In this document: piece by piece, positions 17,172 to 55,255 of the stretch
Numbering within the stretch: the first letter of the stretch is position 1
How the letters are laid out: every line of letters begins with the position of its first letter
From: an uncultured Candidatus Saccharibacteria bacterium
GTDB lineage: Bacteria > Patescibacteriota > Minisyncoccia > Phycocordibacterales > UBA9973
Length of the DNA: 64,000 nt
Direction of reading: 5' to 3'
NCBI GenBank assembly: GCA_964348725.1
Contig: CAYGDG010000004.1
Span: 2,133 to 66,132 of the forward strand
Notes under the pieces: model-generated
What the model saw: only the letters and a program-made list of their open reading frames with translations
The model's database searches: none
What the model was told of the DNA's origin: nothing
Position numbers and translations under genes: made by a program

Positions 17172-17296
17172 ATTTAGATATTTTTTATTACTTTTTTATC
17201 AAATATTTAAGAAGGTTTTTTATAATCCCTTCAAATCAGTTATGAGGTAGCCGAAAATCACAAAAAGAGTAGGCATACAAATTTAATATTTTAGCT

Positions 17297-29567: not shown

Positions 29568-29792
29568 ATGGTAGTAAGAATGAGACATACAAAATCGCAT
29601 ACAGCAAACCGCCGCTCGCACCATGCATTGGAAGCGACCAGCTTTTCCAAGTGCGCGAACTGTTCTGCGCTGAAGCGCCGCCACACCGTATGCCCATCCT
29701 GCGGCTTTTACCGCGGCAGGAAAGTGACTGATTTGGTGAAGAAAGCAGAGAAGAAGCAGAAGAAAGCAAAAGCCAAGACCGCAGCGAAATAA
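29568..29792 (+). CDS. rpmF: 50S ribosomal protein L32
   Basis: MVVRMRHTKSHTANRRSHHALEATSFSKCANCSALKRRHTVCPSCGFYRGRKV is an L32 zinc ribbon with a K/A-rich tail. Confidence 0.8.
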   Translation: MVVRMRHTKSHTANRRSHHALEATSFSKCANCSALKRRHTVCPSCGFYRGRKVTDLVKKAEKKQKKAKAKTAAK

Positions 29793-29833: not shown

Positions 29834-30736
29834 ATGGCAAACAGGCACCTTTCCAGATCCATAGTTCTTCAGACCCTCTTTGAGTGGGATTTCAACGACG
29901 GCAAGGTGGAAATCAAAGACGCATTAAAACGCAACTTGGACGAATTTGCTCCTGGGCTGGAAGACGATGATTTTGTGGCGGCATTGACCGAACAAGTATT
30001 AAAAAAGAGGGAAGTGGTAGATGAAATTATCCAGAAAGCCGCGCCCGAGTGGCCTATCGAAAAGATCTCCGTAGTTGATAGGAATATTTTGCGCATTGGG
30101 CTGTCCGAGCTCCTTTTCGGTGATCGCGCGCAAGTGCCTCCGAAAGTCGCTATCAATGAAGCCATCGAATTGGCAAAAACGTTCGGCGGCGAAAATTCCG
30201 GCAAATTTATCAATGGCGTACTTGGTGCCGTGTACAAAGAAATCGGCGAGCCGGGCAAGGACGAGACTTCTAAAAAGAAAAAGAAAGATGACACGCCGGT
30301 GGACCCGTCAAAATTGCCGGTAGAAAAATTCGGCGGCGCGCTCATCTATTCAAAGAGGGACGGCGAGACACTCTTTGCCCTCGTGCATGACGTATTCGGC
30401 TATTGGACCCTTTCTAAAGGGCATCTTGATCCAGATGATACGGAAGAAGAAGGTACAGTGAAGCGCATCAAAGAAGAATTGGCGCTGGACATCACGATAG
30501 TAGAAAAATTAGGCGACACTGAATATGTGGCCAGCCATCCGGAAAAGGGAAAGCTCCTGAAAAAAGTGTCTTTCTTTTTGGCTGAGAGCAAATACCGCGA
30601 GCTTGTGTTGGAATCATCCGGCGGCCTCGACGGCGCACGCTGGTTCAGACTTTCCGAAATTCCGGAGCTCCGCATTTACAATGACATCATACCGCTCATA
30701 GCCAAAGCAGTGGAGATAATTTCAAAGCAGAAATAA
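29834..30736 (+). CDS. nusB: NusB antitermination factor fused to a C-terminal NUDIX-like hydrolase domain
   Basis: aa 1-140 are NusB ([10 protein letters not shown] ... [15 protein letters not shown] ... [25 protein letters not shown]). A KKKKKDD linker follows. aa ~160-300 have a NUDIX fold ([39 protein letters not shown] ... [12 protein letters not shown]), and the Nudix box is degenerate. Confidence 0.7.
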
Positions 30737-30758: not shown

Positions 30759-31454
30759 ATGATACAGTTTTCCGATTTCGAAAATAAAACAAAAGTAGTA
30801 TTTAAAGATAAAGACCTCTTACGTCAGGCGTTCATTCATCGTTCATATATCAATGAAAATCCGGCGGCTCATCTTTCGCACAACGAGCGCCTGGAATTTT
30901 TGGGTGATGCGGTCCTTGAGCTCGTGGTTACGGATTTCCTCTACAAAAAATATCCGACCTATACCGAAGGGGAACTGACCGCGCTCCGCTCTGCATTAGT
31001 AAATGCCATCATCATCTCCGAAGTCGCTTCCGTTCTCGGGATGAATGAATACTTACTCCTTTCCCGCGGTGAAGCCAAAGACACCGGCAAGGCGCGGCAG
31101 TATATTTTGGCAAATACCTATGAAGCGTACGTGGGTGCGGTATTTTTGGATCAGGGCTACGAAGCGGCGGATACATTTATCACGGAATCATTGTTGCCGC
31201 ACACCGAGGAAATAGTTTCAAAAAAACTCTGGCGCGATGCCAAGAGCCTGGTGCAGGAAAAAGCACAGGAATTCGTCGGCTCTACTCCTTCATACAAGAC
31301 ACTGCACGAATCCGGCCCTGACCATGACAAGCATTTTACTGTCGGTATTTTCTTTGCTGGCGAGCTCGTCGGCGAGGGCAAGGGCAAGAGCAAGCAGGAG
31401 GCCGAACAAAAAGCCGCCGAGGCCGCATTAAAAGCTAAGAACTGGCTGGATTAA
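30759..31454 (+). CDS. rnc: ribonuclease III
   Basis: ERLEFLGDAVLELVVTDFLY signature. C-terminal dsRBD (GPDHDKHFTVGIFFAGELVGEGKGKSKQEAEQKAAEAAL). Confidence 0.9.
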   Translation: MIQFSDFENKTKVVFKDKDLLRQAFIHRSYINENPAAHLSHNERLEFLGDAVLELVVTDFLYKKYPTYTEGELTALRSALVNAIIISEVASVLGMNEYLLLSRGEAKDTGKARQYILANTYEAYVGAVFLDQGYEAADTFITESLLPHTEEIVSKKLWRDAKSLVQEKAQEFVGSTPSYKTLHESGPDHDKHFTVGIFFAGELVGEGKGKSKQEAEQKAAEAALKAKNWLD

Positions 31455-31456
31455 TT

Positions 31457-33595
31457 ATGCGGCTGAAGACTTTAGAACTGAACGGATTCAAATCTTTTGC
31501 CAAAAAAACTTCTTTGGAATTTACGAGCCCGATCACAGCAGTCGTGGGCCCGAACGGCTCCGGTAAATCGAACGTGGTGGAATCCATCCGCTTCGTGCTC
31601 GGTGAACAGTCGATGAAAAGCATGCGCGGCAAGGGCGGCGCGGACCTCATTTTCAAGGGCTCGAAATCCCTTTCTCGCGGCACACGCGCATCCGTCTCCA
31701 TCTTTTTCGATAATAACGACAAAATATTCCGTCTCGAAAATGAAAGCGGCGAGAATATGAATATGAATTACGATACCGTCTCTATCGCGCGCGAAGTATA
31801 TGCGGACGGCCTGAATAAATATTCTTTGAACAATACCGATGTGCGCTTAAAAGACGTGAATGCGCTTCTTGCTTCCGTGAACATCGGCTCCTCCGGCCAC
31901 CACATCATTTCTCAAGGCGAAGCTGACCGGGTGCTGAATGCGCCTTCCCGCGAGCGCCGCGAAATGATCGAAGACGCGCTCGGCCTCAAGATATACCAAT
32001 ATAAAATAAAAGAAGCGGAGCGCAAGCTCGAACGCACCGGCGAGAATATGAAAGAAGTCTCGCTTCTGCGCCGCGAGATAGCGCCGCACCTGAAATTTCT
32101 GCGCGGGCAGGTGGAAAAATTCGCCAAAGCGGAAGAGATGAAGACCGAGCTCCTCGGCCTCTATCGCGACTATTTGAAAAAGGAAAGCGTCTACTTGGAA
32201 AAAGAAGAAACCGCGCTTTCCGGCGAGAAGAAAAGGCTCGAAGCGGAAATTCGCGTCATCTCCGAGCAAGTAGTCGATGAACCAAAAGCGGAAGAGAACA
32301 AAGAAAAGCAGGAAGATCTTCGCGTGGCCGAATTGCGCTCTCTCGAGCAAAAAATATATGCCGTGCGTGCCACAAAGAGCGAGCTCGAACGCAAGCTTGG
32401 CCGCATCGAAGGAATGCTCGAACTCAAAGAAAAGAAAGCTGACCTTTCCGGTAAGTGCCCGCTATGCGGACATATCATCGAACAGAAATCCGCAGAAGCC
32501 ACAGCCGAACATACTGACGACGATTTAGCCGAACTCAAAAATTCGAAAGAAGATATCCTGCGGCAGACCGGTGAAATGGAAAAAGAAATTTCCGTCCTCG
32601 ACGGAGAGATGCGCGCCCTGCGGCAGGCGATAGATTCCGAGCGCGACAGTGAGCGGGAAAAAGAACGAGAGCAGGAACGGGAGAAATATGCCTATAAGAT
32701 GAAGCTCGGCGAGCTTAATTCCGCTCTGAATATAGCGACGGTCAAAGAAGAAAATATCATTCGCGAAGCCGAAGCGTTCGAGAATGAGCTCAAGGAAGGC
32801 GCGGCACTCGTCGGTCCGGATATCCTTTCATATAAGAATGTAGAAATAGAAGGTACACCTGACAGATACCAGCAGGAAGAGGCAAAAAGAAAAATCGAGC
32901 GCTTAAAGATCAAGCTTGAAGATGCTGGTCTTGGCGGCGGGGGAGATATTGCCCGCGAATATGCGGAAGTCTCCGAACGCGACGCATTCCTCGCCAAAGA
33001 AATGGAAGATCTCGGCAAGAGCATCGGTTCATTACAAGCCCTGATGGCCGACCTCAAAGAAAAGATCGACAGCGAATTCAAGGACGGCGTGCGCAAAATA
33101 AATAAAGAATTTTCCGAATACTTTTCATTGATGTTCGGTGGTGGGCATGCATCGCTCGATGTCGTAGCACAGAATAATAATAGGAGAAAAGCCAAGCTTG
33201 ATTCTGCTGAATCAGACGATGACGGGGAGATACCACTCGAGCAGGGAATAGAGATAAATGTATCCTTACCCCACAAGAAAGTAAAAGAGCTGCACGCACT
33301 TTCCGGCGGCGAGCGCTCTCTCACTTCCATCGCCCTTCTTTTTGCTATGTCCCAAGTAAACCCCCCGCCATTCCTCGTGCTGGATGAAACTGACGCTGCG
33401 CTCGATGAAGCGAACAGCCGCAAATACGGTGATATGCTCGAAAAGCTCTCCAAGCATTCCCAGCTCATCGTCGTCACTCACAACCGCGAGACAATGAGCC
33501 GTGCCGGTGCGCTCTATGGCGTGACCGTCGGCGCTGACGGCGCTTCCAAGCTCCTCTCCGTCCGTTTTGACGAAGCGGCCGCTATTGCGAAATAA
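31457..33595 (+). CDS. smc: SMC-like ATPase with a Rad50/SbcC-type CPxCG zinc hook in place of the hinge (712 aa)
   Basis: SMC N-terminal head MRLKTLELNGFKSFAKKTSLEFTSPITAVVGPNGSGKSNVVESIRFVLGEQS. SMC C-terminal head LSGGERSLTSIALLFAM ... FLVLDETDAALDEANSRKYGDMLEKLSKHSQLIVVTHNRETMSRAGALYGVT. Mid-coiled-coil KCPLCGHII. Follows rnc, as smc normally does. Confidence 0.7.
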   Translation: MRLKTLELNGFKSFAKKTSLEFTSPITAVVGPNGSGKSNVVESIRFVLGEQSMKSMRGKGGADLIFKGSKSLSRGTRASVSIFFDNNDKIFRLENESGENMNMNYDTVSIAREVYADGLNKYSLNNTDVRLKDVNALLASVNIGSSGHHIISQGEADRVLNAPSRERREMIEDALGLKIYQYKIKEAERKLERTGENMKEVSLLRREIAPHLKFLRGQVEKFAKAEEMKTELLGLYRDYLKKESVYLEKEETALSGEKKRLEAEIRVISEQVVDEPKAEENKEKQEDLRVAELRSLEQKIYAVRATKSELERKLGRIEGMLELKEKKADLSGKCPLCGHIIEQKSAEATAEHTDDDLAELKNSKEDILRQTGEMEKEISVLDGEMRALRQAIDSERDSEREKEREQEREKYAYKMKLGELNSALNIATVKEENIIREAEAFENELKEGAALVGPDILSYKNVEIEGTPDRYQQEEAKRKIERLKIKLEDAGLGGGGDIAREYAEVSERDAFLAKEMEDLGKSIGSLQALMADLKEKIDSEFKDGVRKINKEFSEYFSLMFGGGHASLDVVAQNNNRRKAKLDSAESDDDGEIPLEQGIEINVSLPHKKVKELHALSGGERSLTSIALLFAMSQVNPPPFLVLDETDAALDEANSRKYGDMLEKLSKHSQLIVVTHNRETMSRAGALYGVTVGADGASKLLSVRFDEAAAIAK

Positions 33596-33622: not shown

Positions 33623-33651
33623 TTGACTTTTGCTATAAAAGGGTGTATAAT
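33623..33651 (+). promoter_or_regulatory. consensus sigma70-type promoter TTGACT-N17-TATAAT upstream of 33739..34068
   Basis: Perfect -35 and -10 hexamers with a 17-nt spacer. Followed by an inverted repeat ATTGTCT...AGACAAT and a second TAGACAA near the ATG. Confidence 0.45.
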
Positions 33652-55182: not shown

Positions 55183-55255
55183 AGCCGGCACGAGGGATCG
55201 AACCCCGGACATCCAATTTACAAAATTGGCGCTCTACCAACTGAGCTATGCCGGC
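55183..55255 (-). tRNA. tRNA-Thr (anticodon UGU)
   Basis: The reverse complement folds as a cloverleaf: acceptor GCCGGCA/TGCCGGC, D-arm GCTC-AGTTGGTA-GAGC, anticodon arm CCAAT-TTTGTAA-ATTGG, T-arm CGGGG-TTCGATC-CCTCG, discriminator T. CCA is not encoded. Confidence 0.85.

What the first reader, a model, noticed from the sequence alone, without database searches (positions are those of the whole stretch)
29834..30736. NusB fused to a degenerate NUDIX hydrolase domain
Residues 1-140 are a complete NusB. After a lysine-rich linker there is a NUDIX-fold domain, [39 protein letters not shown]...[12 protein letters not shown]. Its Nudix box is off-consensus: GX5E is GHLDPDD and REUXEE is KRIKEE, with one residue missing. 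This is a fusion of a transcription antitermination factor to a possibly inactive or recoded nucleotide-pyrophosphatase module. I do not recognise it as a known architecture.
Basis: partly seen in the sequence, partly recalled or inferred. Interest (0 to 1): 0.55.

Follow-up and report, generated by a model that had tools for sequence, protein, structure and literature searches.

The report
NusB fused to a variable Nudix domain
This is a real, widely conserved gene in tiny uncultured bacteria (Parcubacteria) that joins the rRNA-transcription factor NusB to a nucleotide/RNA-end hydrolase module whose catalytic residues have often drifted; it always sits next to RNase III, which hints at an undescribed link between rRNA transcription and RNA 5'-end handling.

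Summary
The 300-aa ORF at 29834..30736 is real. It has a complete NusB (res 1-137), a disordered mixed-charge linker (138-166) and a confidently folded Nudix domain (167-298).

It is not an assembly artefact. The same single ORF occurs in 79 of 80 fetched species genomes, at least 592 species genomes hold a relative of the domain, and 341 distinct fusion proteins were pooled. The locus is always rpmF-nusB::nudix-rnc-smc.

The box aligns without gaps: E->D, R->K, E->R and G->A substitutions, with both EE glutamates kept.

The domain belongs to the diadenosine-polyphosphate hydrolase subfamily. The best structural match is Aquifex aq_158, recently shown to be a broad RNA 5'-end pyrophosphatase/decapping enzyme.

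In five Saccharibacteria-type loci, nusB, a canonical-box Nudix gene and rnc are separate adjacent genes, so the linkage is probably older than the fusion.

In the fusions only 45% keep all four box glutamates, and Lys/Arg are the usual replacements. The domain is still under purifying selection, and likely ligand-binding residues are invariant.

Best reading (about 0.4): a NusB-tethered module that binds or hydrolyses the 5'-polyphosphate or capped end of BoxA-bearing nascent RNA. No paper found describes it.

The parts
29834..30736 (+). Complete nusB::nudix fusion ORF (300 aa plus stop)
   Evidence: An identical protein exists in public data (P0001). The same architecture is found in 79 of 80 species genomes.
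29834..30244 (+). NusB domain, residues 1-137 (seven helices)
   Evidence: Pfam PF01029 E=1.7e-33. TIGR01951 scores 124.9 bits, above the 88.35 cut-off. It aligns end to end with solved NusB structures, 1tzt E=1.8e-20. The AF2 model has helices 4-20, 27-38, 46-57, 59-69, 80-95, 103-118 and 120-137.
30245..30331 (+). Flexible mixed-charge linker with a Lys run, residues 138-166 ([29 protein letters not shown])
   Evidence: AF2 pLDDT is below 50 for residues 140-154 and the whole-protein pTM is 0.50. Across 341 fusions the median length is 29 aa (range 14-46), 73% have a run of at least 3 K/R, and the sequence is not conserved in divergent fusions.
30332..30727 (+). Nudix-fold domain, residues 167-298, of the ApnA-hydrolase (Ndx1 / aq_158) subfamily
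   Evidence: Pfam PF00293 E=1.6e-10. AF2 domain model mean pLDDT 95.1, pTM 0.88. Foldseek best hit is 3i7u aq_158, E=1.6e-11, TM 0.79/0.87, followed by Ndx1, Rv2985, MutT1 and the C. elegans and human Ap4A hydrolases. The PDB sequence search gives the same set.
30419..30487 (+). Off-consensus Nudix box, residues 196-218: [23 protein letters not shown]
   Evidence: Ungapped alignments. Position statistics across relatives.
29568..29792 (+). rpmF (ribosomal protein L32), 41 nt upstream; a conserved neighbour
   Evidence: Pfam Ribosomal_L32p E=3.8e-17. Synteny holds in nearly all of the 80 genomes.
30759..31454 (+). rnc (RNase III), starts 22 nt after the fusion's stop; a conserved neighbour in both fused and unfused lineages
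   Evidence: Pfam Ribonuclease_3 plus dsrm. Synteny.
31457..33595 (+). Short SMC-like ATPase (712 aa), starts 2 nt after rnc; probably the last gene of the unit
   Evidence: Pfam SMC_N E=2.7e-65, with no hinge hit. Synteny. The only strong promoter-like site (11 of 12 matches) lies after it, at 33623.

Best explanation
SHOWN: the gene encodes one polypeptide made of a complete NusB, a disordered tether of about 29 aa, and a well-folded Nudix domain of the diadenosine-polyphosphate-hydrolase / RNA-5'-pyrophosphatase subfamily (Ndx1, aq_158). It lies in a tightly packed rpmF-nusB::nudix-rnc-smc unit that is conserved across Parcubacteria-group Patescibacteria. In five Saccharibacteria-type loci the same three functions are separate adjacent genes, nusB, then nudix (overlapping by 20-50 nt), then rnc. 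In the fusion clade the domain is under purifying selection, but two of the four metal-ligand glutamates (211, 214) vary freely and are replaced mostly by Lys or Arg. G196, E215, K195, W191, D186, Y231, W270 and Y282 are essentially invariant. INFERRED mechanism: the NusB half binds BoxA with S10 on nascent rRNA-leader transcripts, as NusB does elsewhere. The tethered Nudix module then engages the polyphosphate-bearing 5' end of that same RNA, which could be a triphosphate or an Np_nN/NAD-type cap. Canonical-box lineages would convert it to a 5' monophosphate. Charge-reversed lineages, including this window's K210/R211/D202 variant, would mainly bind it or hydrolyse it slowly. This would couple 5'-end status to the RNase III step that excises the leader, for example by licensing 5'-P-dependent decay of the BoxA-containing leader and recycling NusB. 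Confidence that the architecture and evolutionary facts are right is about 0.95. Confidence in the RNA-5'-end mechanism is about 0.4.
For: Architecture. Breadth: all 120 best hits have both domains, as do all 120 best profile hits, with source names including Tagabacteria, Giovannonibacteria, Moranbacteria and Paceibacterota. At least 36 of the top 150 50%-identity representatives are fusions, down to 27% identity. At least 592 GTDB species genomes hold a relative of the domain, and 79 of the 80 fetched are fused with invariant synteny. Subfamily. The best structural neighbour, aq_158, removes 5'-PPP, PP, Np4, NAD, FAD and m7G caps from RNA and is killed by E51A (PMC13145063). E51 aligns with the retained E215. 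Gene linkage without fusion: 5 of the 6 standalone relatives whose context I could interpret sit between nusB and rnc, and all five have canonical boxes. Selection: median omega is 0.12 for the Nudix half and 0.09 for NusB; degenerate-box pairs (0.114) are no more relaxed than canonical pairs (0.152). Box relaxation: all four Glu are kept in 5 of 36 diverse fusions against 20 of 25 standalones, in 26 of 79 genomes and in 155 of 341 pooled fusions. K/R make up 56% of replacements against a 12.7% background. At least 68 state switches are needed; position 211 is at the 77th percentile of variability, while W191, K195, D186, W270 and Y282 show 0-1 changes. Established knowledge: NusB/S10 bind BoxA in the rRNA leader, and the leader-trailer helix is the RNase III substrate (PMC10250234).
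Against: There is no biochemical data for any member. Nudix substrate preference cannot be predicted from sequence without a close characterised homologue, as PMC13145063 itself states, and identity to aq_158 and Ndx1 is only 27-29%. RppH-specific models do not match: NF001937 scores 13.9 bits against a cut-off of 139. No rRNA operon or BoxA lies in the window, so the distance from transcript 5' end to BoxA is unknown. rnc-smc adjacency is common in bacteria (my knowledge), so part of the synteny may be inherited gene order and not functional coupling. The Saccharibacteria neighbour genes are only 23-28% identical to the fused domain, so orthology rests on position plus subfamily. dS is near saturation (0.9-2), so the omega values are rough. 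The pooled set of 341 is biased towards relatives of the queries.
Confidence: 0.4

Rival explanations
1. Small-molecule sensor or hydrolase. The Nudix domain binds, and in canonical-box lineages hydrolyses, a free dinucleoside polyphosphate or related alarmone such as Ap4A-Ap6A. It thereby tunes NusB-dependent rRNA antitermination to stress or growth state, in the way NrtR's dead Nudix domain senses ADP-ribose.
For: The closest sequence and structure relatives are ApnA hydrolases. JGI names related standalones 'diadenosine hexaphosphate hydrolase'. The ligand-sensing NrtR Nudix domain ranks 9th in Foldseek. Lys/Arg at metal-ligand positions, with invariant K195, W191 and Y282, fits metal-independent polyphosphate binding without turnover. 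The same Nudix subfamily is also fused to Sigma70_r4 plus DnaA_C HTH modules (P0199) and to a metallophosphoesterase (P0256), which are regulator-like or ApnA-related contexts.
Against: It does not explain the conserved rnc adjacency in both fused and unfused lineages. The AF2 model gives no fixed interface through which ligand binding could be transmitted to NusB (pTM 0.50, disordered linker). aq_158 shows that 'ApnA hydrolases' of this subfamily can really be RNA-end enzymes.
Confidence: 0.25
2. Fusion of convenience. A housekeeping Nudix hydrolase gene happened to lie between nusB and rnc, overlapping nusB. It became fused by a small frameshift or stop loss in the streamlined Parcubacteria genomes, and the two halves work independently.
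For: In Saccharibacteria-type loci nusB and nudix already overlap by 20-50 nt in different frames, so one indel would fuse them. The linker is poorly conserved and disordered. There is no predicted inter-domain contact.
Against: The fusion is maintained in hundreds of species and down to about 27% domain identity. Catalytic residues relax specifically after fusion (20 of 25 standalones canonical against 5 of 36 fusions) while the domain stays under purifying selection, which indicates a changed, tether-dependent role. The nusB-nudix-rnc order is conserved in both Saccharibacteria-type and Parcubacteria-group lineages.
Confidence: 0.2
3. Non-catalytic protein-docking domain. The Nudix fold has been recruited as a protein-protein interaction surface, for example towards RNA polymerase, S10, RNase III or the ribosome, and nucleotide binding is irrelevant.
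For: Non-enzymatic, protein-interaction Nudix domains exist (PMC5389931). Several positions are more conserved in fusions than in standalones: F188 0.86 vs 0.36, Y247 0.97 vs 0.60, F271 0.86 vs 0.32, D284 0.83 vs 0.32.
Against: The residues most strictly kept (K195, G196, E215, W191, Y282) are the ones shared with active ApnA hydrolases. 45% of fusions retain a perfect catalytic box.
Confidence: 0.1
4. Artefact. Two genes were merged by a sequencing or assembly error in this window.
For: None found. One related genome (L070) has a frameshifted copy, which shows that errors or pseudogenes do occur.
Against: There is a continuous ORF. The identical protein occurs on other contigs. 79 of 80 independent species genomes and 341 distinct proteins share the architecture.
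Confidence: 0.01

Closest known systems
NusB (TIGR01951 / PF01029), the BoxA-binding subunit of the rRNA antitermination complex
   Same: The N-terminal 137 residues pass the equivalog cut-off. They align over the full length with Thermotoga, Aquifex, E. coli and Mycobacterium NusB structures, and the model has the seven-helix fold.
   Different: The described NusB proteins that matched here are single-domain, about 140-160 aa. This one carries a 160-aa C-terminal extension with a folded Nudix domain.
Aquifex aeolicus aq_158 ('Omnivore RNA pyrophosphatase', PDB 3I7U/3I7V) and Thermus Ndx1 Ap6A hydrolase (1VC8)
   Same: These are the best structural and sequence matches: TM 0.79/0.87 and E=1.6e-11 for 3i7u, phmmer E=1.9e-7 for Ndx1. 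They share the W-x-x-P/S-K-G-H lead-in to the box, a C-terminal aromatic residue, and the Glu equivalent to aq_158 E51 / Ndx1 E50.
   Different: Identity is only 27-29%. The window protein has Arg where Ndx1 has E46 and aq_158 has E47, Asp for the GX5E Glu, Lys for the box Arg and Ala for the box Gly. It is covalently tethered to NusB, whereas these enzymes are free-standing 126-134 aa proteins.
RppH / NudH RNA pyrophosphohydrolase
   Same: The proposed activity class is the same: a Nudix domain acting on the 5' polyphosphate of RNA to permit 5'-P-dependent decay.
   Different: It is not an orthologue. NF001937 scores 13.9 bits against a cut-off of 139, and BdRppH ranks only about 41st in Foldseek.
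NrtR and CFIm25/NUDT21: Nudix domains with degenerate boxes used as ligand or RNA binders
   Same: A Nudix fold with incomplete catalytic residues is retained under selection. The NrtR Nudix domain is a high structural hit (rank 9).
   Different: NrtR is fused to a winged-helix DNA-binding domain and senses ADP-ribose. CFIm25 is eukaryotic and binds UGUA (my knowledge). There is no specific sequence relationship. Here about half of the family still has a perfect box.
RsmB/Sun: a NusB-like N-terminal domain fused to a 16S rRNA m5C methyltransferase
   Same: The architectural logic is the same: a NusB-fold RNA-binding domain delivers an RNA-acting catalytic domain. RsmB models hit the N-terminal half weakly.
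   Different: The scores are far below the RsmB cut-offs (50.7 vs 319 bits). The catalytic partner here is a Nudix domain, not a methyltransferase. The NusB half here is a bona fide NusB equivalog, not merely NusB-like.

Membership tests
NusB (TIGR01951 / PF01029) | Equivalog HMM score above the curated cut-off | tested here: met
   124.9 bits against 88.35. Pfam 116.2 bits against 23.1.
NusB (TIGR01951 / PF01029) | All-helical NusB fold of about 130-140 residues that aligns over the full length with solved NusB structures | tested here: met
   Seven helices in the AF2 model. 1tzt E=1.8e-20 over residues 6-138, with 2jr0, 3imq, 1ey1 and 1eyv also matching.
NusB (TIGR01951 / PF01029) | Binds BoxA RNA together with NusE/S10 and supports antitermination | not testable with these tools
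   No rRNA operon or BoxA lies in the window. This needs EMSA or a reconstitution experiment.
NusB (TIGR01951 / PF01029) | It is the organism's only nusB, i.e. the housekeeping copy | tested here: inconclusive
   There is no second NusB-like ORF in the 64-kb window.
Nudix superfamily (PF00293) | Pfam NUDIX score above the gathering cut-off | tested here: met
   41.5 bits (43.6 for the domain alone) against 21.1.
Nudix superfamily (PF00293) | Alpha/beta/alpha Nudix fold | tested here: met
   AF2 pLDDT 95.1, pTM 0.88. 574 PDB Nudix-type matches with E<=1e-3, top TM 0.79-0.87.
Nudix superfamily (PF00293) | Complete Nudix box GX5EX7REUXEEXGU | tested here: not met
   The spacing is canonical, but four consensus residues are substituted: E202D, R210K, E211R and G217A. 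G196, I212, E214, E215 and L218 are kept.
Nudix superfamily (PF00293) | Mg2+/Mn2+-dependent pyrophosphohydrolase activity | not testable with these tools
   Requires an enzyme assay.
ApnA hydrolase / RNA 5'-pyrophosphatase subfamily (Ndx1, aq_158, Nudix-type Ap4A hydrolases) | Closest sequence and structural similarity is to characterised members | tested here: met
   The top four PDB sequence hits are Ndx1 (wild type and mutant), C. elegans Ap4A hydrolase and aq_158. The top Foldseek hits are 3i7u, 1vc8, 9cxx, MutT1 and 1ktg.
ApnA hydrolase / RNA 5'-pyrophosphatase subfamily (Ndx1, aq_158, Nudix-type Ap4A hydrolases) | Glu equivalent to aq_158 E51 / Ndx1 E50 (mutation inactivates aq_158) | tested here: met
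   E215 aligns with it (PMC13145063). It is kept in 333 of 341 fusions.
ApnA hydrolase / RNA 5'-pyrophosphatase subfamily (Ndx1, aq_158, Nudix-type Ap4A hydrolases) | Glu of the 'RE' pair (Ndx1 E46 / aq_158 E47), a metal ligand | tested here: not met
   It is Arg211 in the window protein. It is kept in only 194 of 341 fusions. Its importance in Ndx1 is from my memory of Iwai et al. 2004; that paper is not held.
ApnA hydrolase / RNA 5'-pyrophosphatase subfamily (Ndx1, aq_158, Nudix-type Ap4A hydrolases) | Hydrolysis of Ap4-6A or of RNA 5' polyphosphates and caps | not testable with these tools
   Requires an enzyme assay.
RppH (NF001937) | Equivalog HMM score above the cut-off | tested here: not met
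   13.9 bits against 139.
RsmB/Sun (NusB-like domain plus methyltransferase) | Equivalog HMM score above the cut-off and a methyltransferase domain present | tested here: not met
   50.7 bits against 319, matching the NusB part only. There is no methyltransferase domain.

The most novel reading that the evidence does not exclude
In Parcubacteria the rRNA antitermination factor NusB carries its own RNA 5'-end module. This Nudix domain, derived from a decapping/pyrophosphatase enzyme, reads the 5' triphosphate or non-canonical cap of the nascent BoxA-bearing transcript, and in about half of lineages still removes it. It works together with the adjacent RNase III. In many lineages it has repeatedly turned into a metal-independent 5'-polyphosphate binder, with Lys or Arg taking the place of the Mg2+ ligands. 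That would be a previously unrecognised physical link between the transcription-antitermination machinery and RNA 5'-end chemistry. It would also be a natural series of enzyme-to-reader conversions.
Probability: 0.3. Interest if true: 0.75.

Novelty: new variant of a known kind. Interest (0 to 1): 0.55.

Why it matters
NusB is a universal core factor for rRNA transcription and has been studied as a single-domain protein. A lineage-wide covalent fusion to a Nudix module, preceded by a conserved nusB-nudix-rnc gene order in lineages where the genes are separate, is a classic Rosetta-stone signal. It says these three activities act on the same substrate, most plausibly the pre-rRNA leader. If confirmed, it would show that 5'-end status (triphosphate or cap) is handled within the antitermination and processing machinery in a large group of uncultured bacteria, the Patescibacteria/CPR, with minimal genomes. 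It would also suggest a physiological context for the ApnA-hydrolase subfamily whose in-vitro RNA-deprotecting activity was reported only in 2026. The repeated replacement of catalytic glutamates by Lys or Arg under continued purifying selection is a clean natural dataset for studying how enzymes become binding modules. On the practical side, current annotation ('transcription antitermination factor NusB') hides the second domain.

Tried and rejected
- The search for related loci with the diverse 18-sequence alignment A2 failed because it had no sufficiently conserved stretch. I redid it with the five-sequence alignment A3.
- the cluster look-up of ten divergent fusion representatives gave no taxon names, so taxonomy was taken instead.
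- the Ndx1 biochemistry paper (Iwai 2004) is not held. The role of Ndx1 E46 therefore rests on my memory and is flagged as such.
- model coordinates are not exposed, so I could not map conserved or fusion-specific residues (F188, Y247, F271, D284) onto the 3D model or test for an inter-domain interface.
- the promoter and terminator scan was at chance level and gives only weak support for an operon.
- four literature searches found nothing on a NusB-Nudix fusion.
- Rejected: a deletion in the box (the alignments are ungapped).
- Rejected: a sequencing artefact (independent assemblies).
- Rejected: RppH orthology (HMM far below cut-off).
- Rejected: 'uniformly dead pseudoenzyme' (45% of fusions have a canonical box and E215 is retained).
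- Several short 'standalone' representatives (P0125, P0126, P0131) start inside the fusion linker (MPVE..., MGEP...). I treated them as probable split or partial gene calls, not as true standalone genes.
- The dN/dS analysis is limited by near-saturated dS and is used only qualitatively.
Full report
OBSERVATION. Window 29834..30736 (+) is one uninterrupted 300-aa ORF with an ATG start. Pfam places NusB at residues 7-135 (E=1.7e-33) and NUDIX at 188-286 (E=1.6e-10), both above their gathering cut-offs. The NCBIfam equivalog model for NusB (TIGR01951) scores 124.9 bits against a cut-off of 88.35. The N-terminal 145 residues align end to end with solved NusB structures, 1tzt at E=1.8e-20.

The one factual error is 'one residue missing'. 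Alignments to Thermus Ndx1, Aquifex aq_158 and close relatives carrying REIKEE are ungapped through the box. The spacing G196-x5-D202-x7-K210 is canonical. The box is G-x5-D-x7-K-R-I-K-E-E-L-A-L, so it differs by four substitutions (E202D, R210K, E211R, G217A) and keeps both 'EE' glutamates.

ANATOMY. An AlphaFold2 model of the C-terminal 148 residues is very confident, with mean pLDDT 95.1 and pTM 0.88. It has the Nudix strand-helix-strand topology. The full-length model shows a seven-helix NusB, then residues 140-154 at pLDDT below 50, then the Nudix domain. Its overall pTM is only 0.50, so no fixed inter-domain packing is predicted. Across 341 fusion proteins the linker has a median length of 29 aa (range 14-46). 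It is mixed-charge, contains a run of at least three Lys/Arg in 73% of cases, and is not conserved in sequence among divergent members. The protein therefore looks like NusB with a flexibly tethered module.

NOT AN ARTEFACT, AND NOT RARE. The identical protein is present on other public contigs. All 120 best database hits (74-82% identity, about 300 aa) carry PF01029 plus PF00293 and are annotated simply as 'NusB'. An exhaustive search of 1.84 billion 50%-identity representatives with the Nudix domain alone gave 132 hits at E<=1e-10. At least 36 of the best 150 are full NusB+Nudix fusions, down to about 27% domain identity. A profile of the most divergent fusions again returned 120 of 120 two-domain proteins, with source names including Tagabacteria, Giovannonibacteria, Moranbacteria and Paceibacterota. 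Of the 80 loci fetched, 79 have the single fused ORF. The exception, L070, is a frameshifted copy. All named records are Patescibacteria of the Parcubacteria group. The window holds no second NusB or related Nudix gene.

GENE NEIGHBOURHOOD. In the window the order is thrS(-), rpmF, nusB::nudix, rnc, and a short smc. The intergenic gaps are 41, 22 and 2 nt, and the flanking identities are confirmed by Pfam. This order is nearly invariant in the 80 related genomes and in a Moranbacteria-labelled genome. The consensus promoter and terminator scan is at chance level. The only strong promoter-like site lies after smc. This is compatible with co-transcription but does not prove it.

ROSETTA STONE. 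They do. Five standalone relatives (P0404, P0410, P0427, P0392, P0449), found with a profile of standalone sequences, all lie in the order (rpmF)-nusB-nudix-rnc. Two carry Saccharibacteria source names, and all five share the locus layout. In these loci nusB and nudix are distinct ORFs overlapping by 20-50 nt in different frames. P0427 alone is seen on 16 contigs, so this is not a sequencing error. All five have canonical Nudix boxes (WTIPKGH...REIGEE[T/A]GL). They are only 23-28% identical to the fused domain, about as far as Ndx1 and aq_158 are. Orthology therefore rests on position plus subfamily membership. P0210 also sits directly upstream of rnc, on an odd palindromic contig. P0151 is in a phage-like or mobile context. 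P0489, next to Vsr and enolase, is not linked to nusB. The nusB-nudix-rnc association is therefore probably older than the fusion.

WHICH NUDIX SUBFAMILY. By sequence, the best solved relatives are Thermus Ndx1 Ap6A hydrolase (E=1.9e-7), C. elegans Ap4A hydrolase and Aquifex aq_158 Ap4A hydrolase. By structure, the best are aq_158 (3i7u, E=1.6e-11, TM 0.79/0.87), Ndx1, M. tuberculosis Rv2985 diadenosine polyphosphatase, MutT1 and the C. elegans and human Ap4A hydrolases. The non-catalytic ADP-ribose-sensing Nudix domain of NrtR ranks ninth. RppH-specific models do not match (13.9 bits against a 139 cut-off). [quoted passage not shown] It also removes m7G, Np4, NAD, FAD and sugar caps, and E51A abolishes activity. 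Counting along the alignment, E51 is the second Glu of REVWEE and corresponds to E215 here, which the window protein retains. The same paper warns that Nudix substrate preferences cannot be predicted from sequence without a close characterised homologue. At 27-29% identity that caveat applies here.

THE BOX IS EVOLUTIONARILY RELAXED IN THE FUSION CLADE, BUT THE DOMAIN IS NOT.
- In 25 standalone relatives of 160 aa or less, 20 keep all four box glutamates. In 36 diverse fusion representatives only 5 do, and the 'RE' Glu survives in 8 of 36.
- Among 79 family-level genomes the full G-E-R-E-E-E-G pattern is kept in 26.
- In a pooled set of 341 distinct fusions, 155 (45%) keep all four. E215 is kept in 333, G196 in 330, E202 in 314, E214 in 269 and E211 in 194.
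- Replacements are 56% Lys/Arg, against a 12.7% Lys+Arg background in the domain. This is charge reversal at metal-ligand positions.
- On a UPGMA tree built from non-box columns, Fitch parsimony needs at least 68 switches between canonical and degenerate states. Position 211 is among the more variable columns of the domain (77th percentile) and 214 is at the median. G196 and E215 are constrained (11th-13th percentile). W191, D186, K195, W270 and Y282 show 0-1 changes.
- By alignment, the W-T-x-x-K-G lead-in and the C-terminal aromatic residue match motifs of Ap4A hydrolases (HHWTPPKGH in the C. elegans enzyme). There they contact the phosphates and stack the base (my knowledge, not tested here).
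- Pairwise Nei-Gojobori estimates give a median omega of 0.12 for the Nudix half and 0.09 for NusB. Pairs in which both genomes have degenerate boxes (0.114) are no more relaxed than canonical pairs (0.152). dS is 0.9-2, so these values are qualitative.
- The conserved function of the tethered domain thus does not require a complete catalytic centre, but it does require the fold and the likely ligand-binding residues.
- The window's own state (D-R-E-E at positions 202/211/214/215) is rare, 2 of 341. Most of its closest relatives have a canonical box.

MECHANISM. Shown: the architecture, its subfamily, its breadth, the conserved linkage to rnc, the unfused state in Saccharibacteria-type genomes, and the selection pattern. 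Inferred: NusB with S10 binds BoxA in the pre-rRNA leader. The leader-trailer helix is the RNase III substrate and is essential for 30S biogenesis (PMC10250234). A Nudix module on a tether of about 29 aa, from a subfamily now known to deprotect RNA 5' ends, and encoded between nusB and rnc, is best explained as acting on the 5' polyphosphate or capped end of the same BoxA-bearing transcript. Canonical-box members would convert it to a 5' monophosphate. That could license 5'-P-dependent decay of the excised leader and release NusB. Charge-reversed members, including this window's protein, would bind it or turn it over slowly. I give this about 0.4.

The rivals are these:
- A free ApnA or alarmone sensor/hydrolase that tunes NusB (0.25). 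The subfamily's classical substrates, the NrtR analogy, and fusions of the same Nudix subfamily to Sigma70_r4+DnaA_C or to a metallophosphoesterase support it. The rnc linkage and the lack of a predicted interface weaken it.
- A fusion of convenience, made from two overlapping genes in streamlined genomes (0.2).
- A protein-docking role for the Nudix fold (0.1).
- An artefact (about 0.01).

COMPARISON WITH KNOWN FAMILIES. The N-terminal half is a member of NusB on every criterion that could be tested. The C-terminal half is a member of the Nudix superfamily by HMM and by fold. It does not meet the full Nudix-box consensus, and it lacks the 'RE' glutamate of its closest characterised relatives, so I do not call it a bona fide ApnA hydrolase or an RppH. 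It may work like aq_158 or RppH, or like a ligand-binding Nudix domain of the NrtR/CFIm25 kind. The closest architectural analogy is RsmB/Sun, where a NusB-like domain delivers an rRNA methyltransferase. A large review of the Nudix clan does not mention NusB (PMC5389931), and four literature searches found no description of this fusion or of the gene cluster.

VERDICT. This is a new variant of known kinds: a widespread domain architecture, undescribed in the literature I could search, with a coherent and testable functional hypothesis. Interest 0.55.

Noticed in passing
window 31457..33595 (+): The 'SMC' downstream of rnc is only 712 aa, against about 1150-1200 aa for canonical bacterial SMC (my knowledge). 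Pfam finds SMC_N spanning residues 3-697 but no hinge domain. The middle of the protein contains a CxxC motif (GKCPLCGH), reminiscent of a Rad50/SbcC zinc hook. The homologue is similarly short (about 690-830 aa) in nearly all of the 80 related genomes where the ORF is complete.
   Followed up: partly
L086:74-2971 and L087:1-2905: The leucyl-tRNA synthetase just upstream of the rpmF-nusB-nudix-rnc cluster carries an inserted NUDIX domain (residues 382-501, E=8e-9) right after the editing domain. This is a second unusual Nudix fusion in these Saccharibacteria-type genomes.
   Followed up: partly
proteins P0199, P0256, P0200, P0244, P0183 (representative search): The same Nudix subfamily occurs in other fusions: Sigma70_r4 + Bac_DnaA_C + NUDIX (P0199), metallophosphoesterase + NUDIX (P0256), a roughly 320-aa unknown N-terminal region + NusB + NUDIX (P0200), and a tandem double Nudix (P0183, by my reading of the sequence and the two matched stretches).
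   Followed up: partly
L083:4508-5420, also L085, L086, L087, L089: In these Saccharibacteria-type loci nusB and the Nudix gene overlap by 20-50 nt in different reading frames. The L083 NusB has an acidic low-complexity C-terminal tail. This could reflect translational coupling, and conceivably frameshifting. I did not examine it further.
   Followed up: no
L081:6001-6453: The closest true standalone relative of the fused domain (P0151, 36% identity, canonical box) sits among genes with weak or faint Pfam hits to phage integrase and Phage_rep_O, plus a DNA methylase. That suggests a phage or mobile-element copy.
   Followed up: no
L070:3542-4444: One species genome has the nusB::nudix gene broken across frames while keeping normal synteny. 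It is either a pseudogene or an assembly error.
   Followed up: partly
L082 (whole contig, 4945 bp): The contig has RNase III genes at both ends in opposite orientation, with NusB and Nudix pieces between them. It looks like a palindromic or hairpin assembly artefact.
   Followed up: no
window 17241..17275 (+): Rfam match to the DUF805b cis-regulatory RNA motif (41.4 bits against a gathering score of 35.6). The only other Rfam hit in the window is a tRNA at 55183..55255 (-).
   Followed up: no
window 29834..29893 (+): The first 20 residues of the fusion ([20 protein letters not shown]) are identical in all 20 aligned relatives, which are 74-83% identical overall. This is stronger conservation than the rest of NusB.
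   Followed up: no
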